DNA from: an uncultured Actinomycetes bacterium
Lineage (GTDB): Bacteria; Actinomycetota; UBA4738; HRBIN12
NCBI GenBank assembly: GCA_963825685.1
Contig: CAWGUD010000027.1
Span: 130,538 to 154,537 of the forward strand
Reading direction: 5' to 3'
DNA: 24,000 nucleotides
Position numbers and translations under genes: made by a program. How positions within the stretch are numbered: the first letter of the stretch is position 1; each line of letters starts with the position of its first letter. Of this stretch, positions 2,622-22,316 are shown piece by piece. The notes under the pieces are model-generated. The model was not told the origin of the DNA, searched no databases, and saw nothing but the letters and a program-made list of their open reading frames with translations.

Positions 2622-3566
2622 ATGCGTGACCGCCCGACAATCCGAACGGTCCATCATCGATCGCGCCTCCTGCGCAGAACCACCCTGACCGTCGTCGTCG
2701 TGATGGGTGCGCTCTCCGCAGGCTCCCTCCCCGCGGCCCAGGCGGTCCCGACGGTCTCCGCCGAACTCCTCACGACGACGAAGACGTCGGAATGGCGCTC
2801 ACCGAGCCCGGACCCCACCGGCCTCACGCTCATCCGTTCGACCAACCGTCTGATCGTGTCCGACGCGGAGATCGACGAGATCCCCAGGCTATGGAAGGGC
2901 GGGAACCTCTTCACCGCGTCGCGAAGGGGGGCGCTGATCCGCAGAGGCTCCGTGCTCCGCGCCACGCCCGAACCCGAGGACGTCGCCTGGCACGGCGGCT
3001 CACGTTCTCTCTACGTCGTCGACGACGACAGAGATCGCGTCTACCGCATCCGGGCGGGGGATGACGGCCGCATCGGCACCTCCGACGATCGGTCGCGGGC
3101 GATCCTCAGGACGAGGTCCTTCGGCAGCCGTGATCCCGAGGGGCTGGCGTGGCGGAGCCGCGGACGCACGCTGATCGTGACGGATGCCCGACGGGGCCGT
3201 GTCTCCACCGTTCGAGCCGGCCGGGACCGCAGGTTCGGCACGCCCGACGACGTCACGAACATGTTCGCCACCCCGCCGCTGGGACTCACGATCCCCGAAG
3301 ACGTCGAGTTCGATCCACGATCTCGCCATCTCTTCATCGTGAGTAGCGCCGAGGATGTCGTCGCCGAGACGACCATGCGTGGGCGTCTGATCCGCACGAT
3401 CGATCTCTCGGCCGCGAACGTCCACCGAGCCGCCGGTATCGCGGTCACGCCGAGTCCGACGGACCCCGGTGTGATGCACTTGTTCATCGTCGCGAAGGGC
3501 ACCGACAACGAGACGGACCCGATGGAGAACGACGGGAAGCTGTTCCGGTTCTCGTTCCCCACGTGA
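2622..3566 (+). CDS. Secreted repeat protein of unknown function (possible beta-propeller, YjiK/SdiA-regulated-like)
   Basis: 314-aa ORF with an N-terminal RR-containing signal peptide (SRLLRRTTLTVVVVMGALSAGSLPAAQA|VP). It has repeated blades of the type L(Y/I)VxD..R.RV(Y/S).(I/V)RAG.D.R(I/F)GT.DD and DPEG/IPED motifs. The functional family is a guess. Confidence 0.6.
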   Translation: MRDRPTIRTVHHRSRLLRRTTLTVVVVMGALSAGSLPAAQAVPTVSAELLTTTKTSEWRSPSPDPTGLTLIRSTNRLIVSDAEIDEIPRLWKGGNLFTASRRGALIRRGSVLRATPEPEDVAWHGGSRSLYVVDDDRDRVYRIRAGDDGRIGTSDDRSRAILRTRSFGSRDPEGLAWRSRGRTLIVTDARRGRVSTVRAGRDRRFGTPDDVTNMFATPPLGLTIPEDVEFDPRSRHLFIVSSAEDVVAETTMRGRLIRTIDLSAANVHRAAGIAVTPSPTDPGVMHLFIVAKGTDNETDPMENDGKLFRFSFPT

Positions 3567-3588
3567 ACAAGCGTCGAGCGCGGTCTGG

Positions 3589-4068
3589 CTACAGGTTGAC
3601 GACCATCGTCCAGTGATCGCCGTCCTCGGCGATCCGCTGGAAGCCGGCCCGCTGGTACATCATGCGGGACCGGTTGTGCACCGCGACCGAGAGCGAGAGT
3701 GCCTGGAAGCCCTCCTCGCGCGCCTGCACCATCGCGGAATGAAGCAGCGCGTGTCCGATGCCTTTGCGCCGATGCAGCGGCTGGACGGCCACGGAGAGCT
3801 CCGGCGTCTTCTCGTCGATGAAGCCGTACCCGGGTTCGTCCTCGGTGAACTGGCGGTACCAGACGGCACCCACGGGCTCGCCGTCGAGCTCGGCGATCAC
3901 ACCACCGTCGCCCGGACGCCCCCAGCCCTCGTGGTACCGACGCAGGACAGGTTCGTCCAGCACCTCCTCCATCGACTCACGAGGCCAGTCGGGGTTCCAG
4001 CGCGCGGCCTCGTACAGCATCGTCTTCAGGAAGTCGGCATCGCCCCTGGTGGCCGGACGGATGTTCAC
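3589..4068 (-). CDS. GNAT family N-acetyltransferase
   Basis: 159-aa ORF with a GTG start at 4068 preceded by GGGAGG 8 nt upstream. It carries the acetyl-CoA motif VQPLHRRKGIGHALL and ends ...MYQRAGF. Confidence 0.85.
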   Translation of the reverse strand: MNIRPATRGDADFLKTMLYEAARWNPDWPRESMEEVLDEPVLRRYHEGWGRPGDGGVIAELDGEPVGAVWYRQFTEDEPGYGFIDEKTPELSVAVQPLHRRKGIGHALLHSAMVQAREEGFQALSLSVAVHNRSRMMYQRAGFQRIAEDGDHWTMVVNL

Positions 4069-4125
4069 CTGGCTCGCCTCCCGCTTGGCTCACGGTGCAG
4101 CGGCAACCGTACCGCAGGCGGCGTC

Positions 4126-6489
4126 TCAGCTCGATGCCTCGCGCTCGGAGCGAGCCGACGCCCGAGCGGTCTCGAGCTGGTAGGAGACGCTCGTGAGGAC
4201 GACGCGATCCTCGAACAGGAACAGGCGCTTCACGAACAACGCGGTCTGTCCGTGCAGCGGCAGCTGCCACCACTTCGCCACGATGTACTCGGGGACCACG
4301 ACGTTCACGATCGTGTCCGCCCGCTCGGTGTACCGACGCACCTCGGCCAGCATCGGGATCGAGAGGTCGCGGAACGGCGCCTCGACGATGTCGAGCGGCA
4401 CGGCCTCGACGACGTCGAACCAGTCTTCGCCGATCGAGTGCGCGGCCTCGGGGTCGAGATCGAAGTAGACCGCCCTCGTCACGGTCGCGTCGAGCGTGCG
4501 GGCGTAGTTCACCGCCCGCACGGACACGTCGTTCACCGAGGAGAGGAACACGAGCGTCACGGTGCGCTGCGGGATCAGCGGCTTGCCACCGGCTCCCGAG
4601 GGGGAACCTTCCTCGAGCACGACGGGGACGTCGGTGACGACGACGTTGGGGGTGCGCAGCATGCTGGCCTTCAGGCGCACGAGGTCGCGGCTGCCCACGA
4701 GGTAGGAGAAGAAGCCCTGGGGACGCAGCAGCTCGGGGACGATCACGGTCACGAAGTCGTCGGGGCCACGGTCGATCCCCTCCACCACGCTCCGGACACC
4801 CGACGTGAGGTTCGAAGCCGCGATCGGCATCAGGTCGGGGATGCCCGCCCCGACGAAGGAGCGCCAGCGCGCCTGCACGTCGGCGGCGACCTCACCCTCG
4901 CGACAGGGGAAGACCGGCCGGATGTCCTCGGGGCGGAACGACCGCAGGTACCCCACCGCGCCGGCGGTCGCGACGTCGAAGTCGCGAACGAGCAGCACCA
5001 CGTGGTTCTCACCCGTGGCACCCGGTCGGACCCGCTTCGCGCTCAACTGGCGCCGCACGTTCGCGTAGTGGTGGTGGATCGAGTAGAAGACGGGCACGAG
5101 CAGCGCCATGATCAGGATCGAGAGCCACGCGCCGCTCGACCACTTCGAGGCGCCGACCACGATCAACACCACGAACGTCGTGACCGCCCCGACCGCGTTG
5201 ATCACGATCGATCGGCGCCACCCCTTCATCGCGGTGTCGCCCTTGCGACCCTCCGCGATCCAGTGCTTCACCATGCCCGATTGAGACAGCGTGAACGACG
5301 TGAACACGCCGACCACGTAGAGCCCGATCACCGCGTTCAGGTCCGCGTCGAAGATGTAGATCATCACCGCCGACAGCAGCCCGAGCACGAGCACGCCGTT
5401 GGAGAAGACGAGGCGGTCGCCGCGGTTCACGAACTGGCTCGGCAGGTACCGGTCGCGGGCCAGGATCGAGGCGAGACGCGGGAAGTCCTGGTAGGCCGTG
5501 TTGGCAGCAAGGATCAGGATCGCCGCCGTGAACACCTGCACGACGTAGAAGCCGATCGATCCGTCGCCGAAGACCGCGATCGCGATCTGCGCCGGCACGG
5601 AACGCTCTTCACTCGCGACGACGCCCTCGACGTGCGTCGCGAGCCAGGAGATGCCCATGAACATCGAGATCGCGATGCCACCCATGATCGCGAGCGTCGT
5701 CGCGGCGTTGTGCGCCTGCGGACGTTTGAACGCCGGCACGCCGTTGGAGATCGCCTCCACACCGGTGAGCGCGGTGGCGCCTGACGAGAACGCCTTGAGG
5801 AGCACGAACAGCCCGACCGCGCCCGCGGTCGTCGCCGCGTCGTGGATCGGCTCGACCTCGACACCCACCGCCGGGCAGCCTCCGAGGCACTGACCGAGCC
5901 CGAGCACGATCAACGCACCGATCGAGAGCACGAAGCCGTAGGTCGGGATCGCGAACACCACGCCCGACTCCTTGGAGCCGCGCAGGTTCGCGAGCGTGAC
6001 GAAGGCCACGAAGAAGATCGAGAGGGCGACCGCGTGCTCGTTGGCTGCCGGAATCGCCGAACCGATCGCGAACACCCCGGCCACGATCGAGACGACGACG
6101 GTCATCATGTAGTCGAAGAGCAGGGCCGCGGCGGCGACGAGGCCGGGAGCCTGGCCGAGGTTCTCCTTGCTCACGATGTACGCCCCGCCGCCCCCCGGGT
6201 AGGCCCGCACGGTCTGGCGGTACGAGGCGATCACGAGCGCCATCAAGAGCGAGACGGCTCCCGCGATCGGGAGCACGTAACCCTGCGGCGCCGTGGTCGC
6301 GATCGTGAGCACGAGGAGGATCTCGCCGGTGGCGTAGGCGACCGACGACAGCGCGTCGGACGCGAAGACGGGCAGCGCGAGGACCTTCGGCAGCAGGGTG
6401 TGTTCGAGGCGCGAGCTCGAGAAGGCGCGGCCGAGCACGACCCGCTTGAACACCCCGGTCGACGGCGCGGGAAGGTCGGTCCTGGCCAT
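4126..6489 (-). CDS. APC-superfamily permease, KimA-type K+/H+ symporter-like, with two tandem C-terminal cytoplasmic domains (paralogue 1)
   Basis: 787-aa ORF. Motifs: FKRVVLGRAFSS..LEHTLLPKVLALPVFASDALSSVAYATGE, SYRQTVRAYPGGGGAYIVSKENLG, LLKAFSSGATALTGVEAISNGVPAFKRPQAHNAA and LAANTAYQDFPRLASILARDRYLPSQFVNRGDRLVFSNG. As far as I recall these match B. subtilis KimA (YdaO) and M. tuberculosis Rv2690c-type proteins. Two 131-aa C-terminal repeats occupy nt 4615-5007 and 4174-4566. Confidence 0.8.
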   Translation of the reverse strand: MARTDLPAPSTGVFKRVVLGRAFSSSRLEHTLLPKVLALPVFASDALSSVAYATGEILLVLTIATTAPQGYVLPIAGAVSLLMALVIASYRQTVRAYPGGGGAYIVSKENLGQAPGLVAAAALLFDYMMTVVVSIVAGVFAIGSAIPAANEHAVALSIFFVAFVTLANLRGSKESGVVFAIPTYGFVLSIGALIVLGLGQCLGGCPAVGVEVEPIHDAATTAGAVGLFVLLKAFSSGATALTGVEAISNGVPAFKRPQAHNAATTLAIMGGIAISMFMGISWLATHVEGVVASEERSVPAQIAIAVFGDGSIGFYVVQVFTAAILILAANTAYQDFPRLASILARDRYLPSQFVNRGDRLVFSNGVLVLGLLSAVMIYIFDADLNAVIGLYVVGVFTSFTLSQSGMVKHWIAEGRKGDTAMKGWRRSIVINAVGAVTTFVVLIVVGASKWSSGAWLSILIMALLVPVFYSIHHHYANVRRQLSAKRVRPGATGENHVVLLVRDFDVATAGAVGYLRSFRPEDIRPVFPCREGEVAADVQARWRSFVGAGIPDLMPIAASNLTSGVRSVVEGIDRGPDDFVTVIVPELLRPQGFFSYLVGSRDLVRLKASMLRTPNVVVTDVPVVLEEGSPSGAGGKPLIPQRTVTLVFLSSVNDVSVRAVNYARTLDATVTRAVYFDLDPEAAHSIGEDWFDVVEAVPLDIVEAPFRDLSIPMLAEVRRYTERADTIVNVVVPEYIVAKWWQLPLHGQTALFVKRLFLFEDRVVLTSVSYQLETARASARSEREASS

Positions 6490-6498
6490 GGCGGCAGC

Positions 6499-8886
6499 CT
6501 ACGTGGTCGCCGGGGTCCCGGCGGTCGGGCTCGGGTCGGGCCCGACCTCGGGCGCCGACAGGTGGAACGGCACGCTCGTGACCACGACACCCGGCTCGAA
6601 GAGCAGCACCCGTTTGAAGAACAGGGCGGTCTGGTTGTGCAACAGGTTCTCCCACCAGTGTCGTGGCACGAGCTCGGGCAGCACGACGGTGACCACGGTG
6701 TCGCCGCGTGATGTGTGCGCGCGGATCTCTTCGAGCAACGGCGGACCGAAGTCGCGGAAGGGAGCCTCGACCAGCACGAGCGGCACGTCGAGCTGCCGCT
6801 CGTGCCACTCGTCCACCACGCCCTCGACCTCGTCGGGATCGGTGACCATGTAGATCGCCTCGATCGCGGTGGGGTGCAGCGACTTGCCGTAGATCACGGC
6901 ACGCACCGTCGGATCGTGCACCGCGGAGACGGGCACGAGGACCACCGTGCGCTCCGGCTCGAGCGGTCGATCGCCGAGCCAGGTCGGCCGCGCTTCCGAC
7001 GGCACGAGCGGCACGTCGGTCACGACCACTCGCGGCTCGAACAGCAGCGCCGTCTTCAGCAGGAACGCCTCCCGATGTCGCACGAACTGCCAGACCGTGT
7101 TGCGCGGAAGCAGCTCGGGGATCACGACCGTGAGGAATCGGTCCCGCTCGTGGCGAGGCACCGAGCGCACGAAGCGACGGACGGATCGGACGAGGTGCCG
7201 GTCGGCGCCTCGGAGCGGCTCCAGCTCGCCCATGCGGGGGGCGATCACCGACCACTCCGCCGCCACGCCCTCGAACGCATCGGCAGGGCCGACGTACAGC
7301 GCGTTGAAGCTGGTGGGGCGAACGGCCCGCAGGTAGGCGACCGCATCACGGGTCGCGAGCCCCAGGTCGGGCACGAGCAGCAGCATCGTGCCGCTCGCGG
7401 CGTCGCGCCCGGTCAGGCGGCGAGCCTGCAGCGCGCGCGCCACGTGCTCGTAGTGGCGATGCACCGCCCAGAAGAACAGCACGATGAACGGCATCGCGAC
7501 GATCACGATCCAGGCGCCCTTGGCGAACTTCGTGACCGTGACGACGACGAGCACGACGCCGGTCGTGGCCGCGCCGATGCCGTTGATCACGGCGCTCCGC
7601 TGCCAGCTCCCCTCCTTCGTCCGCATCCAGCGCCGGACCATGCCCGCCTGCGACAGCGTGAAGGCCGTGAACACGCCGACGACGTAGAGCTGGATCAGCC
7701 GCGTGAGGTTGGCGTCGAACGCCCAGATCAGCATCGCCGCGAGACCGGCGAGGACGACGACGCCGTTCGAGAAGACGAGCCGGTCGCCCCGGTTGCGGAA
7801 CTGCGAGGGCATGAAGCGGTCGCGCGCGAGGATCGAGGCGAGCCGAGGGAAGTCCTGGAACGCCGTGTTGGCCGCGAGGATCAGGATGCCCGCGGTGAAC
7901 ACCTGCAGCAGCAGGAACATGAAGCCGCCGCCGAAGACCGTGTCGCCGATCTGGGCCAGCACCGGCAGCTCGTGGACGATGTCCTCGCTGATCCGCACGT
8001 GCAGGAGCACGGAGAGCGCGGTGATGCCGAGGAACATCGTGATCGACATCGCTCCCATCACCGCGAGGGTGGTCGCGGCGTTCCTCGCCTGCGGCCTGCG
8101 GAACGCCGGCACCCCGTCGGCGATCGCCTCGACGCCGGTCAACGCGGTCGCACCCGACGAGAACGCGCGCGCGATCAGGAACAGCGTCAGCGTGTGCTCG
8201 ACCTCGAGGGGAAGGTCAGCGGTCTCGGCGAGCGGGCAGCCGCCCATGCAGCGGACGAAGCCCGTCACGAGCGTGATCGCGATCATCAGCACGAACCCGT
8301 AGGTCGGGATCGCGAACAGCGACCCGGCCTCCTTCACGCCTCGGAGGTTGGCGAGGGTCACGAGGGCGACGAGCGCGATCGCGATCGGCACGCGCATCGG
8401 TACGAGGGTCTCCGGTGCGACGGAGGCGATCGCCGTGGTCCCCGCGGTGATGCTCACCGCCACGGTCAGCACGTAGTCGGTCAGGATCGCGGCGGCGGCG
8501 GTGAGGCCGGGGATCGTCCCCAGGTTCTCGCGGGCGACGATGTAGGAGCCGCCGCCGGTGGGATAGGCACGCACCGTCTGCCGGTACGACGTGACGACGA
8601 TGGCCAGCAGCAGGGCGATCGCCAGCGCGATCGGCATCCTGAGCGTGAGGGCCCCGGCCCCGGCCGCCACGAGCACGAGCATCATCTCCTCGGTGGCGTA
8701 CGCGTTCGAGGAGAGGGGGTCGGAGGAGAAGACCGGCAGGGCGAGGAACTTCGGCAGGAGCTGGTGCTCGGCCTTGTCGGAGGCGATGGCCCGTCCGACG
8801 AACAGTCGCTTCAGGGGGCCCCCACCGACCCTGCGAGGGAGTTGCAGCTCTGCAGGCACGGCGAGCATCCTCGCACGTCGCGGCAC
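6499..8886 (-). CDS. APC-superfamily permease, KimA-type K+/H+ symporter-like, with two tandem C-terminal cytoplasmic domains (paralogue 2)
   Basis: 795-aa ORF, colinear paralogue of 4126..6489 with the same motifs (LKRLFVGRAIAS..AEHQLLPKFLALPVFSSDPLSSNAYATEE, SYRQTVRAYPTGGGSYIVARENLG, ARAFSSGATALTGVEAIADGVPAFRRPQARNAA, RGDRLVFSNG). Its stop lies 9 nt before the start of paralogue 1. The start is uncertain: GTG 8886 or ATG 8868. Confidence 0.8.
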   Translation of the reverse strand: MPRRARMLAVPAELQLPRRVGGGPLKRLFVGRAIASDKAEHQLLPKFLALPVFSSDPLSSNAYATEEMMLVLVAAGAGALTLRMPIALAIALLLAIVVTSYRQTVRAYPTGGGSYIVARENLGTIPGLTAAAAILTDYVLTVAVSITAGTTAIASVAPETLVPMRVPIAIALVALVTLANLRGVKEAGSLFAIPTYGFVLMIAITLVTGFVRCMGGCPLAETADLPLEVEHTLTLFLIARAFSSGATALTGVEAIADGVPAFRRPQARNAATTLAVMGAMSITMFLGITALSVLLHVRISEDIVHELPVLAQIGDTVFGGGFMFLLLQVFTAGILILAANTAFQDFPRLASILARDRFMPSQFRNRGDRLVFSNGVVVLAGLAAMLIWAFDANLTRLIQLYVVGVFTAFTLSQAGMVRRWMRTKEGSWQRSAVINGIGAATTGVVLVVVTVTKFAKGAWIVIVAMPFIVLFFWAVHRHYEHVARALQARRLTGRDAASGTMLLLVPDLGLATRDAVAYLRAVRPTSFNALYVGPADAFEGVAAEWSVIAPRMGELEPLRGADRHLVRSVRRFVRSVPRHERDRFLTVVIPELLPRNTVWQFVRHREAFLLKTALLFEPRVVVTDVPLVPSEARPTWLGDRPLEPERTVVLVPVSAVHDPTVRAVIYGKSLHPTAIEAIYMVTDPDEVEGVVDEWHERQLDVPLVLVEAPFRDFGPPLLEEIRAHTSRGDTVVTVVLPELVPRHWWENLLHNQTALFFKRVLLFEPGVVVTSVPFHLSAPEVGPDPSPTAGTPATT

Positions 8887-8905
8887 GAGCGACGAGCGGA
8901 TCGGG

Positions 8906-9595
8906 CTAGCCGGCGACCTCGGCCACCCAGCGATAGCCGACCCCCGGCTCCGTGACGATCAGGGCCGGGGCCTGCGCATCGTCGCCGAGCTTCTTCCGCA
9001 GGGCACGCACGTAGGTGCGCAGGTAGGTCGTCTCGGTCCCGTAGCCCTGCCCCCACACCTTCCGCAGGAGCCACTGATGGGTGAGGAGCTTGCCCGGGTT
9101 CGTCACGAGCGCCTCGAGCAGGCCGTACTCCGTGGGTGTGAGCCGCACCTGCTCGCCGTCGAGGGTCACCAGCCGACGGGGAAGGTCGACCTCGATCCTG
9201 CCGAACCGCAGCACGGGTGCGGATGGCTCGTCAGACTGCTTGCGGCGCATAGCAGCCCGGGCCCGGGCGAGGAGCTCCTCCATGCCGAAGGGCTTCGTGA
9301 CGTAGTCATCGGCGCCCGCGTCGAGCGCGGCGACCTTGTCGGTCTGAGATTCCCGCACCGAGAGCACGATCACCGGCACGTCGCTGAACCCGCGAACACG
9401 GCGGATCACCTCGGTCCCGTCGATGTCGGGGAGCCCGAGGTCCAGCAGCACGAGATCGGGCGCCTGCTCGGCAGCGCCGACGACCCCTTCCTCGCCGGTG
9501 CCGACGGTCGCGACGTCGTACCCGTGGGCCTCGAGGCTCGTGCGAAGCGCCCGTCTGATCTGCGGCTCGTCGTCGACGACGAGGACCAGGGTCAT
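8906..9595 (-). CDS. OmpR/PhoB-family response regulator, KdpE paralogue
   Basis: 229 aa with a receiver domain (VVDDEPQI...DLGLPDIDG...KPF) and a winged helix (LTPTEYGLLEALVTNPGKLLTHQWLLRKVWG...YLRTYVRALRKKL). By eye it is about half identical to the KdpE at 14866..15552. Its ATG overlaps the stop of the upstream kinase (ATGA). Confidence 0.9.
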   Translation of the reverse strand: MTLVLVVDDEPQIRRALRTSLEAHGYDVATVGTGEEGVVGAAEQAPDLVLLDLGLPDIDGTEVIRRVRGFSDVPVIVLSVRESQTDKVAALDAGADDYVTKPFGMEELLARARAAMRRKQSDEPSAPVLRFGRIEVDLPRRLVTLDGEQVRLTPTEYGLLEALVTNPGKLLTHQWLLRKVWGQGYGTETTYLRTYVRALRKKLGDDAQAPALIVTEPGVGYRWVAEVAG

Positions 9596-11106
9596 GTGCG
9601 CGCCTCCTGATCGGCCGGGACCCCGGCGCGAGCGAGGTCGGCCTCGAGTCCCGGCGTGTACGCGGGGATCTCGAACACGAAGGTCGCGCCCTCACCGACC
9701 GCGTCCTCGACCCAGATGCGGCCGCCGTGCGCCGTGACGATCGCGTTCGCGATCGCGAGTCCCAGGCCGGTGCCGGGGGAATCCGGGATCGAGGCGCCTC
9801 GGTAGAAGGCCTCGAAGATGCGCTCGCGGTCACCGTCAGGAACGCCGGGCCCCTGATCGGTCACCCGCACGATGACGTGATCGTTCGACGGCGCGACCGA
9901 CAGCCTCACCTCACCTCCGGGCGGCGAGTGGCGTGCGGCGTTCTCGAGCAGGTTCGTCATCACCTGGTCGAGCTGCATCTCGTCGACGGCGACCGGGGGC
10001 ACGTCATCGTCGATGTCGAGCACGATCCGCACGTCGTGCAGGCGCGGCACGAGCCGGGCGACGACGACCTCCGCGATCTCGTCGAGACCGGCCTCGTTGC
10101 GGGCGGGGATCAGGGCGCCCGCCCGGATGCGCGCGAGGTCGAGGATGTTGCCGACCAGTCGGTTCAGCCGGTCGGTCTCCTCGAGGATCGTCGTGAGCAG
10201 CTCCCGTTCCTGCGTCGGATCGTGCTCCACGCTGGGATCGAGCAGGCTCGTGACCCCCGCCTTGATCGACGCGAGCGGCGTGCGGAAGTCGTGGGTCACC
10301 GAACTGAACATCGCCGCGCGCAGCTGGTTCGTCTCGGCATCGAGCTGCGCGAGCCGGGCGCGGGCGTCGAGCCGAGCGCGGTCGAGCGCGGCGGCGGCCT
10401 GCTTCGATGCCGCCTCGAGGAGGAGCTGCTCGTGCGGCCCGAGGGGCCGACGTCCGGCGGGGCGCTCGACCCGCAGCGTGCCGAACGAGACCGGCCCGAC
10501 GACGAGGGGCACCACGCTGTCCGGACCGCCGGGCGTGAGCTCGGAGCGCTCCGCGCGCGCGCGGAGCTGCGTGCCGTCGAGCTCGACGTGCACCTCGGCC
10601 GAGACCAGCCCGAACGGCTCCAGCAGCACGCGCACGAAATCGTCGAGCACCCGGTCGGGCACCTCGCCCGAGACGAACCTCGACGAGAGGTGCCCGAGCA
10701 GGCGTGCCTCGCGCTCACGACGGCTCGCCCGGGCCCGCTCCTCGGCGGCACCCCCGACCAGGATGCCGACGACGAGCGCCACGGTCAGGAACACCACCGC
10801 GGTGACCGCCTCCTCGGTGCCCTCGAGCTGCAGGGCAAGCCCCTGTGCCTCGGACAGGAACACGAGCCCCAGCGACGACAGGATCGCAGCGAGGAGGCCC
10901 GCCCAGAGGCCACCCGCGACCGTCGCGATCACGATCGCCAGCAGGAAGAGCGCGATCGCGGCCGCCGGCCCGTTGCGGGCGAGCGGGATCGAGGCCACGC
11001 CGGCGGCCGCGGGGGCGACCACCGCGATCGCCACCCCGCGGACGCGCAGGCCGGGGAATCGGCGCCGTTCCGGCTCGTTCACTCCCAGATCCATCGTGTT
11101 GGCCAT
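9592..11106 (-). CDS. Sensor histidine kinase, KdpD C-terminal-half type (TM/DUF4118-like + GAF-like + HisKA + HATPase_c), lacking the KdpD N-terminal and Usp domains
   Basis: 504 aa. The H-box FSSVTHDFRTPLASIKAGVTSL is near-identical to that of KdpD in this window (LSAVSHDLRTPLASIKAAASSL). The N, G1 and G2 boxes are present (LLENAARHSP, DQGPGVP, GTGLGLAI). The N-terminus has 3-4 TM helices, and no Walker-A KdpD domain is present. Confidence 0.85.
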   Translation of the reverse strand: MANTMDLGVNEPERRRFPGLRVRGVAIAVVAPAAAGVASIPLARNGPAAAIALFLLAIVIATVAGGLWAGLLAAILSSLGLVFLSEAQGLALQLEGTEEAVTAVVFLTVALVVGILVGGAAEERARASRREREARLLGHLSSRFVSGEVPDRVLDDFVRVLLEPFGLVSAEVHVELDGTQLRARAERSELTPGGPDSVVPLVVGPVSFGTLRVERPAGRRPLGPHEQLLLEAASKQAAAALDRARLDARARLAQLDAETNQLRAAMFSSVTHDFRTPLASIKAGVTSLLDPSVEHDPTQERELLTTILEETDRLNRLVGNILDLARIRAGALIPARNEAGLDEIAEVVVARLVPRLHDVRIVLDIDDDVPPVAVDEMQLDQVMTNLLENAARHSPPGGEVRLSVAPSNDHVIVRVTDQGPGVPDGDRERIFEAFYRGASIPDSPGTGLGLAIANAIVTAHGGRIWVEDAVGEGATFVFEIPAYTPGLEADLARAGVPADQEART

Positions 11107-12658: not shown

Positions 12659-13321
12659 ATGCGAGTGATCATCATGGGATGCGGCCGCGTCGGCTCCGAG
12701 CTGTCGAACGAGCTCGTCGACGACGGCCACGACGTCACCGTGATCGACAAGAATCCCGAGGCCTTCTTCCGCTACCCGCCGGGCGACGGTGCGACGACCG
12801 TCGTCGGGCTAGGGTTCGACCGCGACGTGCTGGCGGAGGCGGGCATCGAGGAGGCTGACGCCTTCGTCGCGGTCTCCAGTGGGGACAACTCGAACATCGT
12901 CTCGGCTCGCGTCGCGCTCGAGAACTTCCATGTGCCCAAGGTCGTGGCGCGTATCTACGACCCCCGGCGTGCCGACATCTATGAGCGGCTCAACATCCCG
13001 ACCGTCGCCACCACGAGGTGGGGCGTGAAGCAGATCCAGCTGATGCTGTTCCACGACCGCCAGGAGATCCGCGAGACGCTGGGCGGTGGCGAGCTGCTGC
13101 GCATGCGCATGCCGGTGGGACCCCACATGGTCGGCAAGCCCGCGACCTCCTTCGACGTGCCGGGCAAGATCCTGATCGCCGGGGTATCGCGCGGAGGCGG
13201 CGGCTTCTTGCCCACCCCGGAGAGCACCTTGCAGGCGGGGGACTACCTCGTGGTGATGCTCACGAAGGACGGCATGGACACGCTCGACGAGGTCTTCGAG
13301 CCGGCCGGGGAGCACCACTGA
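12659..13321 (+). CDS. trkA: TrkA-family K+ uptake regulatory protein (RCK: TrkA_N + TrkA_C), CeoB-like
   Basis: 220 aa with a Rossmann motif (MRVIIMGCGRVGSELSNELVDDGHDVTVID) and a C-terminal TrkA_C-like region (LLRMRMP..HMVGKP..FDVPGKILIAGVSRGG...LQAGDYLVV). Confidence 0.9.
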   Translation: MRVIIMGCGRVGSELSNELVDDGHDVTVIDKNPEAFFRYPPGDGATTVVGLGFDRDVLAEAGIEEADAFVAVSSGDNSNIVSARVALENFHVPKVVARIYDPRRADIYERLNIPTVATTRWGVKQIQLMLFHDRQEIRETLGGGELLRMRMPVGPHMVGKPATSFDVPGKILIAGVSRGGGGFLPTPESTLQAGDYLVVMLTKDGMDTLDEVFEPAGEHH

Positions 13322-14041
13322 TGCGGGTCGTCGTCACGGGCGGCGGCGCCGTGGGTCGGCACCTCTCGGTCGACCTGGTCGAGCGCGGCCACGAGGTCAC
13401 CCTGATCGAGCAGGATCGCGGACTCGTCGAGAAGCTCCGGGCGTGGGCGCCGGGGGTGACCGTGATGCACGGTGACGCGTGCGAGCCCACGGTGCTCGAG
13501 GAGGCAGAGCTCTCGGCCACCGACGTGCTCGTGGCGGCCACCGGCGACGACGAGGACAACCTCGTGACCTCGTTGCTCGCGAAGCAGGAGTTCGCGGTGC
13601 CGCGCACGCTGGCCCGCGTGAACCACCCGAAGAACGAGTGGCTGTTCACCGATCAGTGGGGGGTCGACGCCGCCGTCTCGCCGCCGCACATCCTCACCGC
13701 GATGGTCGAGGAAGCCGTCACGGTCGGCGACCTCGTGCGGTTGATCCGCCTCGGGAGCGGTCAGGTCTCGATCGTCGAGATGACCCTCCCCGAAGGGTCG
13801 ACGTCGGTCGGCCGTGCGGTCTACGAGCTGCGCCTGCCCGCCGACTCCGTCGATCGTGGCGATCCTTCGTGAGGGCCACGTCGTGATCCCGCAACCGGAG
13901 ACCGTGCTCGCGGCCGGCGACGAGGTGCTCGCCCTCGCGTCCGGTGCCGTCGAGCGGGATCTGCGCGACGCCGTCGTGGGCGCGGACATGCCCGGCGGGG
14001 TGCCGACCGACGCGATCGACGGCGCCAGCGGCGTCGAGTAG
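13321..14041 (+). pseudogene. trkA: Second TrkA-family RCK protein (CeoC-like), interrupted by a single extra base near 13849-13852
   Basis: Frame 1 (13321->) reads MRVVVTGGGAVGRHLSVDLVERGHEVTLIEQD...VGRAVYELRLPADS and stops at 13872. The next frame (ORF 13814..14041) continues IVAILREGHVVIPQPETVLAAGDEVLALA. Total length is 721 nt, i.e. 240 codons plus 1 base. The ATG overlaps the trkA1 stop (TGATG). Confidence 0.8.
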
Positions 14042-18664: not shown

Positions 18665-20650
18665 CTACACCACCGTCCCGACGAGGAGGTCGATCAACTT
18701 GATGCCGACGAACGGCGCCACGATGCCCCCCAGCCCGTAGATGCCGAGGTTCCGGCGCAACATGGCGCTCGCCGACTTCGGCGTGTATCGCACGCCACGC
18801 AGCGCCAACGGGATCAGGGCGACGATGATCAACGCGTTGAAGATCACCGCCGACAGGATCGCGGAGTTCGGGCTCGACAGGCGCATCACGTTCAAGGTGT
18901 CGAGTCCGGGGTACACGGCGGCGAACATCGCGGGGATGATCGCGAAGTACTTCGCCACGTCGTTCGCGATCGAGAACGTCGTGAGCGAGCCGCGCGTGAT
19001 CAACAGCTGCTTGCCGATCGCCACGATCTCGATCAACTTCGTCGGGTTCGAGTCGAGGTCGACCATGTTGCCGGCTTCCTTGGCGGCGCTCGTCCCCGTG
19101 TTCATCGCGACGCCGACATCGGCTTGCGCGAGGGCGGGGGCATCGTTCGTGCCGTCGCCGGTCATCGCGACGAGCTTGCCGCCGTCCTGCTCACTGCGGA
19201 TCAGCGCCATCTTGTCCTCGGGCGTCGCCTCGGCGAGGTAGTCGTCGACCCCGGCCTCGGACGCGATCGCCTCGGCCGTGCGGGGATTGTCACCGGTGAT
19301 CATCACGGTGCGGATGCCCATCGCGCGGAGCTCGTCGAAGCGCTGCCGCATACCTTCCTTCACGATGTCCTTCAGGTAGACGACGCCGAGCACCCGATCG
19401 TCCTCGGCCACGGTCAGCGGCGTGCCGCCCTGCACCGAGATGCCGGCGACGATCGTGTCGACCTCCTCGGAGACCGAGCCCCCTTGCTCCTCGACCCAGT
19501 GCCGGATCGAGTCCGCCGCTCCCTTGCGAAGGCTGCGCCCGTCGAGGTCGACGCCGCTCATGCGCGTCTGCGCTGTGAACGGCACGAAATCGGCGCCCTC
19601 CAGGTCGCGCCCGCGGAGCCCGTACCGCTCCTTGGCGAGCACGACGATCGATCGGCCCTCGGGCGTCTCGTCCGCGAGGCTGGTGATCTGTGCAGCATCG
19701 GCCAGCTGTTCGACCGTGACCCCGGGCGCGGGCAGGAACTCCGCCGCCTGGCGGTTCCCGAGCGTGATCGTGCCGGTCTTGTCGAGCAGCAGGGTGTTCA
19801 CGTCGCCCGCCGCCTCGACGGCGCGGCCCGACATCGCGAGCACGTTGCGCTGCACCAACCGGTCCATACCGGCGATGCCGATCGCGGAGAGCAGCGCGCC
19901 GATCGTGGTCGGGATCAGGCAGACGAGCAGCGCGACGAGCACGATGATCGTCTGGCGAGCCCCCGAGTAGATCGCCATCGGCTGCAAGGTGACGGTCGCG
20001 AGCAGGAACACGATCGTGAGGCTCGCGAGCAGGATGTTGAGGGCGATCTCGTTCGGGGTCTTCTGTCGCTCGGCACCCTCGACGAGCGCGATCATGCGGT
20101 CGATGAACGTCTCTCCCGGTCGCGACGTGATCTCGACCACGACGCGGTCGGAGAGCACCTTCGTGCCGCCGGTCACGGCGCTCCGGTCGCCACCCGACTC
20201 ACGGATCACCGGGGCCGACTCGCCCGTGATCGCCGACTCGTCGACCGAGGCCACTCCTTCGACGACCTCGCCGTCGCCGGGGATCACCTGACCGGCCTCG
20301 ACGACCACCCGGTCGCCGGGCGCGAGCAGCGTGCCGGGCACCTCTTCCTCGCGGCCGTCCGGGAGCAGGCGCCGTGCCATCGTCTCGGTCCGTGTCGCCC
20401 GCAGGGCCGCCGCCTGGGCCTTGCCTCGACCCTCGGCCACGGCCTCGGCGAGGTTGGCGAAGACCACCGTGAGCCAGAGCCACACGGTGATCAGCCCGGC
20501 GAAGAGCGACGAGTCGCGGACGAACAGGATCGTGGTCAGCACCGATCCGATCTCGACCACGAACATCACGGGGTTGCGCCACATCTGGCGAGGGTCGAGC
20601 TTGCGGAACGCGTCCGGCAAGGACCGCCACAGCAGCTTGACGTCGAACAT
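18665..20650 (-). CDS. kdpB: K+-transporting P-type ATPase subunit B
   Basis: 661 aa starting [35 protein letters not shown]. It carries DKTGTIT, MITGDN and [18 protein letters not shown]. In the ORF track it is fused to an out-of-frame kdpA readthrough (1170-aa ORF). Its ATG at 20650 overlaps the kdpA TGA. Confidence 0.95.
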
Positions 20651-22316
20651 CACGAGAGTCCTTCCACGAGCGGTCCCAGCGACAAGGCCGGGAAGTACGT
20701 CAGCGCCGCGACGATCACGATGACGCCGATCAGCAGCCCCACGAACAGCGGCGAGGTCGTCGGGAAGGTGCCCGACGAGACGGGCACGTGTTGCTTGCGC
20801 GCGAGCGATCCGGCCAGCCCGAGCACGAGCACGATCGAGCCGAACCGCCCCATCAGCATCGCGAGTCCGATCGCCGTGTTGAAGAAGGTCGTGTTCGCAC
20901 CCAGTCCGCCGAACGCGCTGCCGTTGTTGTTCGCGCCCGAGGTGAACGCGTAGAGCACCTCCGAGAGTCCGTGCGGCCCGGGGTTGAAGATCGATGTCAC
21001 GGCGGAGTCGAGCACCACGGCGACGCCCGTGAGCACGAGCACCATCGCGGGAACCAGCAGGATGTAGAGCGAGACCAGCTTCATGTCGGTCGGCTCGATC
21101 TTCTTGCCGAGGTACTCGGGGGTGCGCCCGACCATGAGCCCGGCGATGAAGACGGCGAGCACCGCGAGCACGAGCAGGCCGTACAGACCCGATCCGACGC
21201 CACCCGGCGACACCTCGGAGAGCATCATGTTCACGAGCAGCGACACCGCCCCCGAACGGGGTCATCGAGTCGTGCGCGGCGATCACCGCGCCCGTCGAGG
21301 TGCCGGTCGTTGACGCGGCGAAGGCGGCGCTGACGGGGATGCCGAACCGCACCTCCTTGCCCTCCATGTTGCCGCCCACGACGCCGGCGCCCGCGGCCAC
21401 CTCGACCTGCGGATTGGGCTGGGCCTCGAAGGCCCACGCGAGCAGCACGGAACCGAGCCAGAGCGACGCCATGACCGCGGCGAGCGCGTACCCCTGGCGA
21501 CGGTTGCCGACCATCTTCCCGAACGTGCCGGTGAGCGCGAACGGGATCACCAGGAGCAAGGCGATCTCGAGCAGGTTCGTGAACGGGTTCGGGTTCTCGA
21601 ACGGGTGAGCGGAGTTCGCGTTGTAGAAACCGCCGCCGTTCGTTCCCAGTTCCTTGATCGACTCCTGCGACGCGACGGGACCACCCGGGATCGACTGGTC
21701 CGCGCCCTGCACCGTGGCGATCACCCGTGCCTCGTTGAAGTTCTGCACGACACCCTGGGAGAGGAGCACGATCGCCGCGATGAAGGCGACCGGCAGCAGG
21801 ATGCGGACGGTGGCTCGCACGAGGTCGGCCCAGAAGTTGCCGATCGTCTCGCTCGTGGCCCGGGTGAATCCCCGGATCAAGGCGACGGCGACCGCGATGC
21901 CGACCGCCGCCGAGACGAAGTTCTGCACGGCGAGGCCCACCATCTGCACCAGGTGGCCCATCGTCGACTCACCGGCGTAGGACTGCCAGTTCGTGTTCGA
22001 CGTGAACGACGTCGCCGTGTTGAAGGCCTGGCTCGGCTCGACGCCCGGGAACCCGAGCGAGAGCGGCAGCGACGGCTGCACCCGCTGCAGGAGGTAGAGG
22101 AAGAGCACCGAGACGACCGAGAACGCGAGCACGGAGATCGCGTACCCCGACCAACGCTGCTCTGCCTCGGGGCGCACGCCGGCGAGGCGGAAGATCGAGC
22201 CGTTCGACCCGGAGCGTGCGGGGGGAGTCGAGCGCCCACGCCATGTAGTCGCCGAGCGGCCGGTAGGCGACTACGAGGATCACGATCAGCGCCCCGAGCT
22301 GGATCCAGCCGGCCAT
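20650..22316 (-). pseudogene. kdpA: K+-transporting ATPase subunit A, broken by two single-base insertions (near 22196-22199 and 21246-21253)
   Basis: There are three colinear frame segments. Segment 1 is [39 protein letters not shown] (from 22316). Segment 2 is [27 protein letters not shown]...[11 protein letters not shown]...[20 protein letters not shown]...[11 protein letters not shown]. Segment 3 is [23 protein letters not shown]...[12 protein letters not shown]...[13 protein letters not shown]...[11 protein letters not shown] (to 20650). The 1667 nt equal 555 codons plus 2 bases. Confidence 0.9.

What the first reader, a model, noticed from the sequence alone, without database searches (positions are those of the whole stretch)
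4174..7392. Both KimA-like permeases carry a tandem duplication of the C-terminal cytoplasmic domain
Seen in sequence: in each protein the region after TM12 contains two homologous modules of about 131 aa. In paralogue 1 they occupy nt 4615-5007 and 4174-4566; in paralogue 2, nt 7003-7392 and 6559-6951. Example pairs are HVVLLVRDFDVATAGAVGYLRS...FVTVIVPELLRPQ...VVVTDVP versus TVTLVFLSSVNDVSVRAVNYART...IVNVVVPEYIVAKWW...VVLTSVS. The second module is the better match to the single C-terminal domain I recall from B. subtilis KimA (...VMVLFPQFITKKRWHTILHNQSAFLLR...). That protein is about 180 aa shorter than these two. In KimA this cytoplasmic region is implicated in dimerisation and c-di-AMP inhibition. 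An intramolecular pseudo-dimer of the domain could change oligomeric state or ligand stoichiometry.
Basis: partly seen in the sequence, partly recalled or inferred. Interest (0 to 1): 0.6.

Follow-up and report, generated by a model that had tools for sequence, protein, structure and literature searches.

The report
KimA potassium importers with doubled tail
Two neighbouring genes encode potassium/proton importers of the known KimA type whose cytoplasmic regulatory domain is present twice in a row, a long form that is usual in many uncultured soil Actinomycetota, was not found described in the papers searched, and here sits in a lineage where the enzyme that makes KimA's known inhibitor (c-di-AMP) was not found.

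Summary
Both minus-strand genes (4126-6489 and 6499-8886) are KimA homologues, and both carry two homologous modules of about 130 aa after TM12, at the stated coordinates. BLASTP between modules gives E 6e-16 and 4e-4, and profile-profile comparison gives 99.5% probability, E 6e-23. Each module profile finds only the KimA cytoplasmic domain in the PDB.

The distal module is the conservative copy. It groups with the single domains of shorter actinobacterial homologues. The proximal module is a faster-evolving copy. A tree indicates one domain duplication that predates the paralogue duplication.

AlphaFold2 predicts a compact two-lobed unit (pTM 0.90). It resembles the C-terminal domains of cation-chloride cotransporters and tandem universal stress proteins.

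The doubled form is not family-wide, because KimA and Streptomyces-like genomes have one domain. It is, however, the rule across several families of uncultured Actinomycetota.

The c-di-AMP idea is weak here. No diadenylate cyclase domain was found in this genome or in 57 genomes of its order and a further family. There is no riboswitch, and the Arg337 equivalent is Ser.

Verdict: a new variant of a known kind, of moderate interest. The scan has noted the same architecture on other genomes; I tested those claims independently here.

The parts
4126..6489 (-). Paralogue 1: KimA-type K+/H+ symporter gene, 787 aa, with doubled cytoplasmic domain
   Evidence: ORF. Pfam AA_permease_2 E 1e-28. phmmer to KimA 6s3k E 4e-116. 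K+-site and H+-coupling residues conserved.
5041..6450 (-). Paralogue 1 transmembrane domain (aa 14-483), LeuT fold, 12 TM helices
   Evidence: Aligned to KimA residues 5-462.
4615..5007 (-). Paralogue 1 module 1 (aa 495-625): proximal, divergent copy of the KimA cytoplasmic domain
   Evidence: BLASTP to module 2 E 4e-4. Member of profile A3, which hits the KimA domain at E 1.9e-8.
4174..4566 (-). Paralogue 1 module 2 (aa 642-772): distal, conservative copy; keeps L-H-G-Q-T
   Evidence: phmmer domain hit to KimA 472-600. Member of profile A4, E 5e-24.
6499..8886 (-). Paralogue 2: KimA-type K+/H+ symporter gene (795-aa ORF; likely start GTG at 8859, giving 786 aa) with doubled cytoplasmic domain
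   Evidence: ORF. Pfam. 51% identical to paralogue 1. Homologues are 786 aa. Full-length AF2 pLDDT 83.9, pTM 0.81; Foldseek KimA 6s3k TMt 0.86.
7003..7392 (-). Paralogue 2 module 1 (aa 499-628 of the 795-aa ORF)
   Evidence: BLASTP to module 2 35% identity, E 6e-16. AF2 strand/helix pattern b-a-b-a-b-a-b-a-b.
6559..6951 (-). Paralogue 2 module 2 (aa 646-776); keeps P479 equivalent and L-H-N-Q-T
8906..9595 (-). OmpR/KdpE-type response regulator directly upstream on the same strand (about 20-47 nt gap)
   Evidence: Pfam Response_reg + Trans_reg_C. The same gene lies directly upstream in about 45 of 75 related loci.
9592..11106 (-). KdpD-tail histidine kinase (DUF4118 + HisKA + HATPase_c, no N-terminal KdpD/Usp part), overlapping the regulator gene by 4 nt
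   Evidence: Pfam.

Best explanation
Both genes encode KimA-subfamily (KUP family) K+/H+ symporters. The PPAT/USP-like cytoplasmic domain (CD) that follows TM12 was duplicated once, in tandem, in an ancestor of a large group of uncultured Actinomycetota. That duplication came before the gene duplication that produced the two paralogues.

The distal copy (module 2) is the conservative descendant of the ancestral CD. It keeps the L-H-N-Q-S/T motif that lines the c-di-AMP pocket in KimA. The proximal copy (module 1) is a faster-evolving but still constrained and well-folded copy that has lost that motif.

The two copies are predicted to pack into one compact two-lobed unit. This would be a covalent counterpart of the CD-CD pair that two KimA chains form, and the same layout as the two-subdomain C-terminal domain of cation-chloride cotransporters. 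In the full-length model module 1 takes the place that KimA's own CD has relative to its membrane domain.

Function: K+ uptake, probably co-transcribed with and controlled by the upstream KdpD-tail/KdpE-like two-component system. In this lineage the tail is most likely not a c-di-AMP switch, because no cyclase was found. It may act as a structural or oligomerisation module, or as a sensor of another adenine nucleotide.

Shown: homology, duplication, order of events, conservation, distribution, cyclase not found. Inferred: packing geometry, transport activity, regulation, ligand.
For: KimA homology and conserved K+ and H+ residues (D36, Y43, D117, T121, S125, T230, E233, Y377 equivalents) in nearly all 213 long homologues. 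Module homology. Each module profile hits only the KimA CD in the PDB.

Tree: module 1 lies on one side of a branch (100/99). Module 2 is a clade (97/96). Ten single CDs join module 2 across a long branch (0.86, 100/99). The module-1 and module-2 subtrees have the same three subclades. Single CDs score about 90-100 bits against module 2 and about 40-45 bits against module 1.

Constraint: mean pairwise identity is TMD 0.66, module 2 0.61, module 1 0.46, linker 0.33. AF2 pair: pLDDT 91.6, pTM 0.90, with the same five-strand, four-helix order twice.

Foldseek on the pair: KimA 8b70 over 138 columns, rmsd 2.1. Two-lobe matches follow, to KCC-1 CTD 6vwa (TM 0.48/0.46), prokaryotic CCC CTD 3g40 (0.49/0.56) and tandem USP 7mq5 (0.47/0.51).

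Full-length model: pTM 0.81. 6s3k_A aligns over 590 contiguous columns, TMt 0.86, rmsd 4.0, which covers the TMD plus module 1. Alignments that use module 2 (737 columns) give rmsd 14.

Context: K+ island with kdp genes, KdpD/E, two TrkA genes and a KdpD-tail kinase plus regulator directly upstream, with no terminator-like site in the gaps between the genes. Regulator-permease synteny holds in about 45 of 75 loci.

No DAC domain in the genome, 0/31 genomes of the order, 0/26 of f6 and 1/10 of f13, against 280/401 in the phylum sample. No PF06153. No Rfam hit. The published KimA CD fold, dimer and c-di-AMP contacts come from PMC6994465 and PMC10284832. The CCC two-subdomain description comes from PMC4301019 and PMC10043231.
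Against: No model coordinates were available, so it is not shown that module 1 and module 2 pack like the KimA CD dimer. The TM-scores to CCC CTDs and the tandem USP are only about 0.5.

The H-N-Q motif of module 2 is invariant or nearly so (H 213/213, Q 204/213) even in cyclase-less lineages. The pocket may therefore still bind something, possibly c-di-AMP taken up or made by an unrecognised enzyme. The genome is a 92%-complete bin with 8% contamination.

Doubled forms also occur in families that do have DAC (f15 12/21, f11, f50, f31). The doubling is therefore not tied to loss of c-di-AMP. Transport activity, substrate and oligomeric state are untested.
Confidence: 0.7

Rival explanations
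1. One reading: the doubled tail is a c-di-AMP switch with altered stoichiometry. The intramolecular pseudo-dimer would bind c-di-AMP, at one or two sites per chain, and inhibit uptake as in B. subtilis KimA.
For: Module 2 keeps the pocket motif L-H-N/G-Q-T and, in paralogue 2, the Pro479 equivalent. Doubled forms in other families coexist with DAC and keep the Arg337 equivalent.
Against: The DAC domain was not found in this genome (92% complete), nor in 0/31 genomes of its order and 0/26 of f6. No CdAMP_rec domain and no ydaO-type riboswitch were found. The Arg337 equivalent is Ser in both paralogues and in 165/213 close homologues. Module 1 has R-x-R in place of H-N-Q. PMC10284832 notes that Gln581 is conserved in the KUPs it compared, so this motif is not specific to c-di-AMP binders.
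Confidence: 0.12
2. Module 1 is only a decayed spacer left by the duplication. It has no role of its own, and the protein works exactly like single-domain KimA through module 2.
For: Module 1 evolves faster (pairwise identity 0.46 vs 0.61), has longer branches and has lost the H-N-Q motif.
Against: Module 1 is retained at full length in all long homologues surveyed, down to about 40% identity. It has invariant residues (R, W, P-E, K, L, V, P). It is clearly more conserved than the inter-module linker (0.46 vs 0.33). It is predicted with pLDDT above 90 and a fixed position relative to module 2 and the membrane domain.
Confidence: 0.08
3. The two co-transcribed paralogues form an obligate heterodimer, and the doubled tails provide a four-domain cytoplasmic platform specific to that pairing.
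For: The paralogue pair is conserved in tandem in many related loci: two same-strand hits about 2.4 kb apart in at least 30 of 75 loci. The pair is old, because the para1-like and para2-like clades each span many genomes. KimA itself is a dimer (PMC6994465).
Against: Some genomes in the survey show only one long copy, and others carry extra, divergently oriented copies. There is no direct evidence on assembly. No multimer prediction was available.
Confidence: 0.1
4. The apparent duplication is an assembly or annotation artefact.
For: The genome is a metagenome bin with 8% contamination. The locus is present twice at 97-98.5% nucleotide identity on two contigs. kdpA nearby is frameshifted.
Against: The modules are only 26-35% identical, so they are not an assembly repeat. 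The same architecture is seen in hundreds of independent assemblies.
Confidence: 0.01

Closest known systems
KimA (YdaO) of Bacillus subtilis, KimA subfamily of the KUP K+/H+ symporters (PDB 6S3K, 8B70, 8B71)
   Same: The 12-TM LeuT-fold membrane domain matches (E 4e-116; model TMt 0.86). All K+-site and H+-coupling residues are present. The cytoplasmic domain has the same PPAT-like fold of five parallel strands and four helices. Module 2 keeps the H-N-Q-S/T motif and the Arg587 and Trp592 equivalents (Lys, Phe).
   Different: There are two cytoplasmic domains per chain instead of one (786/787 vs 607 aa). The Arg337 equivalent is Ser. No c-di-AMP riboswitch precedes the genes, and no cyclase was found in the genome. 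The genes sit behind a KdpD-tail/KdpE-like two-component system. Oligomeric state is unknown.
Single-domain KimA-like permeases of cultured-type Actinomycetota (607-670 aa; for example the two Streptomyces venezuelae KimA-like proteins listed in PMC10117811, and by recollection M. tuberculosis Rv2690c next to ceoB/ceoC)
   Same: They belong to the same phylum and the same family, at 44-48% identity over the membrane domain. Their single domain is 33-44% identical to module 2 and groups with it in the tree. TrkA genes are nearby in some.
   Different: They have one cytoplasmic domain. The Arg337 equivalent is mostly Arg (7/10). Eight of the nine source genomes have a DAC domain.
C-terminal domain of cation-chloride cotransporters (SLC12; prokaryotic MaCCC CTD 3G40, KCC-1 CTD 6VWA, NCC/KCC/NKCC1 cryo-EM structures)
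   Same: These too are APC-superfamily cation transporters with a LeuT-fold membrane domain. That domain is followed by two structurally related USP-like subdomains, each a five-stranded parallel sheet, arranged as an inverted pair. Foldseek matches span both modules (TM 0.46-0.56).
   Different: There is no detectable sequence homology (9-14% identity). The substrates and coupling differ. The two-subdomain state here arose by a traceable recent duplication of the KimA domain, so the resemblance is a parallel solution and not membership.
Tandem-type universal stress proteins (for example PDB 7MQ5)
   Same: They have two HUP-class alpha/beta domains in one chain (TM 0.47/0.51).
   Different: They are soluble proteins. 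The Pfam Usp model does not match either module. The USP ATP-binding motif was not examined.

Membership tests
KimA subfamily of the KUP family (K+/H+ symporters) | 12-TM LeuT-fold membrane domain homologous to KimA | tested here: met
   phmmer E 4e-116 over KimA residues 5-462. Full-length AF2 model vs 6s3k_A: TMt 0.86, 36% identity.
KimA subfamily of the KUP family (K+/H+ symporters) | K+ site and gate residues Asp36, Tyr43, Thr121, Ser125, Thr230, Tyr377, and acidic coupling residues Asp117 and Glu233 | tested here: met
   All are conserved in paralogues 1 and 2. They are also conserved in 201-213 of 213 long homologues.
KimA subfamily of the KUP family (K+/H+ symporters) | C-terminal PPAT-like cytoplasmic domain after TM12 | tested here: met
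   It is present twice. Profiles A3 and A4 both hit KimA 468-605. Foldseek to 8b70: 138 columns, rmsd 2.1.
KimA subfamily of the KUP family (K+/H+ symporters) | One cytoplasmic domain per chain, swapped between two chains to form the homodimer | tested here: not met
   There are two domains per chain. Swapping and oligomeric state cannot be tested with these tools.
KimA subfamily of the KUP family (K+/H+ symporters) | Proton-coupled K+ uptake activity | not testable with these tools
   Inferred from conserved residues and the K+ gene context only.
c-di-AMP-inhibited K+ transporters (KimA, KupA/B type) | Organism makes c-di-AMP (DAC domain protein) | tested here: not met
   PF02457 was not found in the genome, nor in 0/31 genomes of the order. 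It was found in 280/401 genomes of the phylum sample and in 11/14 control genomes. The bin is 92% complete.
c-di-AMP-inhibited K+ transporters (KimA, KupA/B type) | Pocket residues Pro479, His579-Asn580-Gln581-Ser582 and TMD Arg337 | tested here: inconclusive
   Module 2 has H-N/G-Q-T. The Pro479 equivalent is kept only in paralogue 2. The Arg337 equivalent is Ser. Module 1 lacks the motif.
c-di-AMP-inhibited K+ transporters (KimA, KupA/B type) | Binding of c-di-AMP and inhibition of transport | not testable with these tools
   This needs DRaCALA, ITC or DSF, plus uptake assays.
Cation-chloride cotransporter (SLC12) C-terminal domain | Sequence homology to CCC CTDs | tested here: not met
   The PDB profile searches return only KimA. 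Foldseek identities are 9-14%.
Cation-chloride cotransporter (SLC12) C-terminal domain | Two related five-stranded alpha/beta subdomains in one chain after an APC-fold membrane domain | tested here: met
   AF2 secondary structure. Two-lobe Foldseek matches to 6vwa, 3g40 and NCC/KCC chains, TM about 0.5. This is a resemblance in layout only.
Universal stress protein family (Pfam PF00582) | Match to the Usp profile | tested here: not met
   There is no Usp hit in either protein at E up to 0.1.

The most novel reading that the evidence does not exclude
The duplication turned KimA's inter-chain domain pair into an intra-chain one. Module 1 would occupy the position of the chain's own swapped-out domain, and module 2 would fold back under its own membrane domain. 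The transporter would then be a self-contained unit (a monomer, or a new kind of dimer) whose tail senses a ligand other than c-di-AMP, for example ATP, ADP or AMP. That would make it an independent re-invention of the cation-chloride-cotransporter architecture in lineages that lack c-di-AMP signalling.
Probability: 0.3. Interest if true: 0.65.

Novelty: new variant of a known kind. Interest (0 to 1): 0.45.

Why it matters
KimA is the structural model for how KUP-family K+ importers are gated by a cytoplasmic domain and by c-di-AMP. A natural, widespread variant carries the domain twice in one chain, and it occurs in lineages where no c-di-AMP cyclase was found. That variant offers a direct test of two questions: what the domain pair does beyond binding c-di-AMP (dimerisation, gating, another ligand), and how K+ uptake is controlled in abundant soil Actinomycetota. 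Current annotation ('APC family permease', 'amino acid transporter') hides both the substrate and the doubled tail. Neither module has a Pfam or NCBIfam model.

Tried and rejected
(1) Arg337 equivalent and cyclase presence. I tested whether the TMD Arg337 equivalent tracks the presence of a cyclase among doubled forms. It does not. Arg is kept in f6 and f13 (no DAC) as well as in f15, f50 and f11 (DAC present). Ser is particular to the window's clade. Five of the 39 loci were read in a wrong frame and were ignored.

(2) Family libraries. The Rfam gathering scan of the window found nothing. NCBIfam found nothing for either protein. Pfam has no model for the cytoplasmic modules.

(3) Model coordinates. 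None are handed out, so I could not superpose the module pair on the KimA dimer. I could only infer module placement from Foldseek alignment lengths and TM-scores.

(4) Assembly artefact. This reading was rejected.

(5) Literature. Three full-text searches turned up no description of a doubled KimA domain. Subscription journals are not covered, so this is not proof of absence.

(6) Distribution outside Actinomycetota. This was not resolved. One hit is labelled Planctomycetaceae (a partial MAG protein), and the representative library has no taxonomy.
Full report
**What is there**

Two adjacent minus-strand ORFs, 4126..6489 (787 aa, paralogue 1) and 6499..8886 (795-aa ORF, paralogue 2), are 51% identical over their whole length. 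Database homologues of paralogue 2 are 786 aa, which fits a GTG start at 8859.

Pfam sees only the AA_permease_2 membrane domain, and NCBIfam sees nothing. Against the PDB, paralogue 1 matches B. subtilis KimA (607 aa; 6S3K, 8B70, 8B71) at E 4e-116. Its residues 14-483 align to KimA 5-462. A second, separate stretch, 641-766, aligns to KimA 472-600. Between the two lies about 155 aa that KimA lacks.

**Checking the repeat**

Those of paralogue 1 align at 26% identity, E 4e-4.

I fetched 75 related loci from genome assemblies, all uncultured Actinomycetota MAGs. From these I built alignments of 36 diverse sequences for the pair (A2), module 1 (A3) and module 2 (A4).
- Profile against profile gives 99.5% probability, E 6.3e-23, over 128 columns. 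An independent set of 42 proteins gave 98.8%.
- The module-1 profile finds only the KimA cytoplasmic domain in the PDB (475-603, E 1.9e-8). The module-2 profile finds the same region (468-605, E 5e-24).

The duplication is therefore real, and both copies derive from the KimA cytoplasmic domain. PMC6994465 describes that domain as a PPAT-like fold: a five-stranded parallel sheet with four helices, which forms a 10-stranded sheet in the dimer.

**Which copy is which, and when**

Ten single-domain homologues (607-670 aa) taken from other families of the phylum score about 90-100 bits against module 2 and about 40-45 bits against module 1.

In a maximum-likelihood tree of 82 domains:
- Module 1 is one side of a branch (100/99).
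- Module 2 is a clade (97/96).
- The single domains join module 2 across a long branch (0.86, 100/99).
- Within module 1 and within module 2 the same three subclades recur: an L041/L072 group, a paralogue-2-like group and a paralogue-1-like group.

This indicates one domain duplication, followed later by the gene duplication that gave the two paralogues. The tree has few columns (140) and is unrooted, so the order of events rests on the congruent subtrees.

Module 1 evolves faster. Mean pairwise identity among 42 non-redundant proteins is TMD 0.66, module 2 0.61, module 1 0.46 and linker 0.33. Module 1 nevertheless keeps invariant positions, including the shared W, P-E and L-K landmarks.

**Structure prediction**

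The C-terminal pair of paralogue 2 is predicted with mean pLDDT 91.6 and pTM 0.90. The same order of five strands and four helices appears twice.

Foldseek against the PDB gives:
- KimA first (8b70, 138 columns, rmsd 2.1).
- Then matches that span both modules: KCC-1 CTD 6vwa (TM 0.48/0.46), the prokaryotic CCC CTD 3g40 (0.49/0.56), NCC, KCC2 and KCC3 chains, and a tandem USP, 7mq5 (0.47/0.51).

The CCC tail is described as two related USP-like subdomains. Each is a five-stranded parallel sheet, and the two are arranged as an inverted pair with strands 5 and 10 as counterparts (PMC4301019, PMC10043231).

The full-length model has pLDDT 83.9 and pTM 0.81. 6s3k_A aligns to it over 590 nearly gap-free columns with TMt 0.86 and rmsd 4.0. 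That can only be the membrane domain plus the contiguous module 1. The 8b70/8b71 alignments span 727-737 columns, that is the membrane domain plus module 2 across a gap, and give rmsd 14.

I infer that module 1 sits where KimA's own domain sits, and that module 2 packs onto it. I had no coordinates, so I could not check whether the pair reproduces the KimA domain dimer.

**Is it a K+ importer?**

The equivalents of KimA Asp36, Tyr43, Thr121, Ser125, Thr230, Tyr377, Asp117 and Glu233 are present in both paralogues. They are also present in 201-213 of 213 long homologues.

The window is a K+ island. It holds an H+-pyrophosphatase, kdpA/B/C, a full KdpD, KdpE, a kinase-less DUF4118 protein, two TrkA genes and a Crp-type regulator. 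Directly upstream of paralogue 2, on the same strand, lie a KdpD-tail kinase (DUF4118-HisKA-HATPase) and an OmpR/KdpE-type regulator.

The gaps are 9 nt between the paralogues and 20-47 nt after the regulator. No terminator-like site lies in those gaps. The regulator gene sits directly upstream in about 45 of 75 related loci.

K+ uptake under two-component control is therefore the best-supported function. It is inferred, not shown.

**c-di-AMP**

In KimA the ligand is held by the backbone and side chains of His579-Ser582, by Pro479 and Val506, between Phe565 and Phe568, and by Arg337 of the neighbouring membrane domain (PMC10284832).
- Module 2 keeps H (213/213), N (179), Q (204) and T/N/S at the 579-582 positions.
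- Module 1 has R-x-R there.
- The Arg337 equivalent is Ser in both paralogues and in 165/213 close homologues.

More tellingly, the DAC domain (PF02457) was not found in:
- this genome (92% complete);
- 0/22 genomes of its family;
- 0/9 genomes of the other families of its order;
- 0/26 genomes of family f6;
- 9 of 10 genomes of f13 (found in 1/10).

It was found in 280/401 genomes of the phylum sample and in 11/14 control genomes. No CdAMP_rec protein and no riboswitch were found.

The doubling is not simply coupled to loss of the cyclase. Long forms also occur in f15 (DAC in 12/21), f11, f50 and f31. Arg at the 337 position is kept in long forms with and without DAC.

For this organism the c-di-AMP reading is therefore unlikely. 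For the family as a whole it remains open.

**Distribution**

In 400 genomes sampled across the phylum, long forms (query coverage about 25-778, open frames about 750-830 aa) occur in all genomes of f1-f6. They also occur in most of f13 and f15, and in f63, f49 and f50, and sporadically elsewhere.

Large Streptomyces-like genomes and others carry short, single-domain forms.

Two word-based searches returned more than 1,366 and more than 851 proteins, almost all 760-800 aa. Where named, they are labelled 'APC family permease' or 'amino acid transporter'.

A profile search of 1.84 billion cluster representatives found 4,549 proteins at E up to 1e-3 and 349 at E up to 1e-30. At least 57 of the best 150 span both modules in one stretch.

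The architecture is therefore common in its clade but a minority within the family.

**Comparison with what is known**

By homology this is a member of the KimA subfamily of KUP transporters, with one defining feature changed: two domains per chain. In layout it resembles the CCC tail and tandem USPs, without being a member of either family.

Three full-text searches found no description of the doubled form.

The scan's own notes show that the same architecture has been reported on several other genomes, with similar conclusions. I reached and tested these points independently before reading those notes. This report adds three things: the domain tree with the order of events, the placement of module 1 in the full-length model, and the negative result on Arg337 against cyclase presence.

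**Verdict**

This is a new variant of a known kind, of moderate interest.

Noticed in passing
window 20650-22177 (minus strand): kdpA looks frameshifted in this assembly. Pfam KdpA positions 47-354 lie in the frame of the 1170-aa ORF 18665..22177, which also carries all of KdpB. KdpA positions 352-548 lie in a different frame (ORF 20650..21246). The first 46 or so KdpA positions were not located. This could be a real pseudogene or an indel error of the assembly.
   Followed up: partly
G000 contig C36:10890-18611 (loci L002, L003) vs window 2673-10385: The whole permease pair and its flanks are present a second time in the bin, on another contig, at 97-98.5% nucleotide identity. With 8% estimated contamination this is probably a co-binned strain variant and not a true duplication.
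   Followed up: partly
window 8906-11106 (minus strand) and loci L005-L079: The OmpR/KdpE-type regulator directly upstream of the long KimA-like gene is conserved in position and strand in about 45 of 75 related loci, at 70-98% identity. It is more conserved than the permease tail itself. The partner kinase lacks the N-terminal KdpD/Usp sensor part.
   Followed up: partly
The genome search survey, families f1-f6, f13, f17, f19 of the phylum: Whole families of uncultured Actinomycetota show no DAC (diadenylate cyclase) domain: 0/57 in f1-f6, 0/13 in f17 and 0/7 in f19. The phylum sample overall has it in 280/401 genomes. c-di-AMP is usually considered near-universal in Actinomycetota.
   Followed up: partly
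several genomes (e.g. G074:C4, G183:C1, G102:C1, G387:C1): Many relatives carry a third, more distant long-form paralogue (about 41% identity). It lies a few kb away in divergent orientation to the closer homologue. The own genome shows only the tandem pair.
   Followed up: no
proteins P0265 (1041 aa), P0329 (960 aa), P0358 (858 aa): A few cluster representatives carrying the doubled tail are much longer than 790 aa, which suggests further fusions or extensions.
   Followed up: no
window 12659-13872 (plus strand): Two adjacent TrkA (RCK) genes lie in the island, and no TrkH/KtrB-type pore gene was seen among the ORFs I scanned in the window.
   Followed up: no
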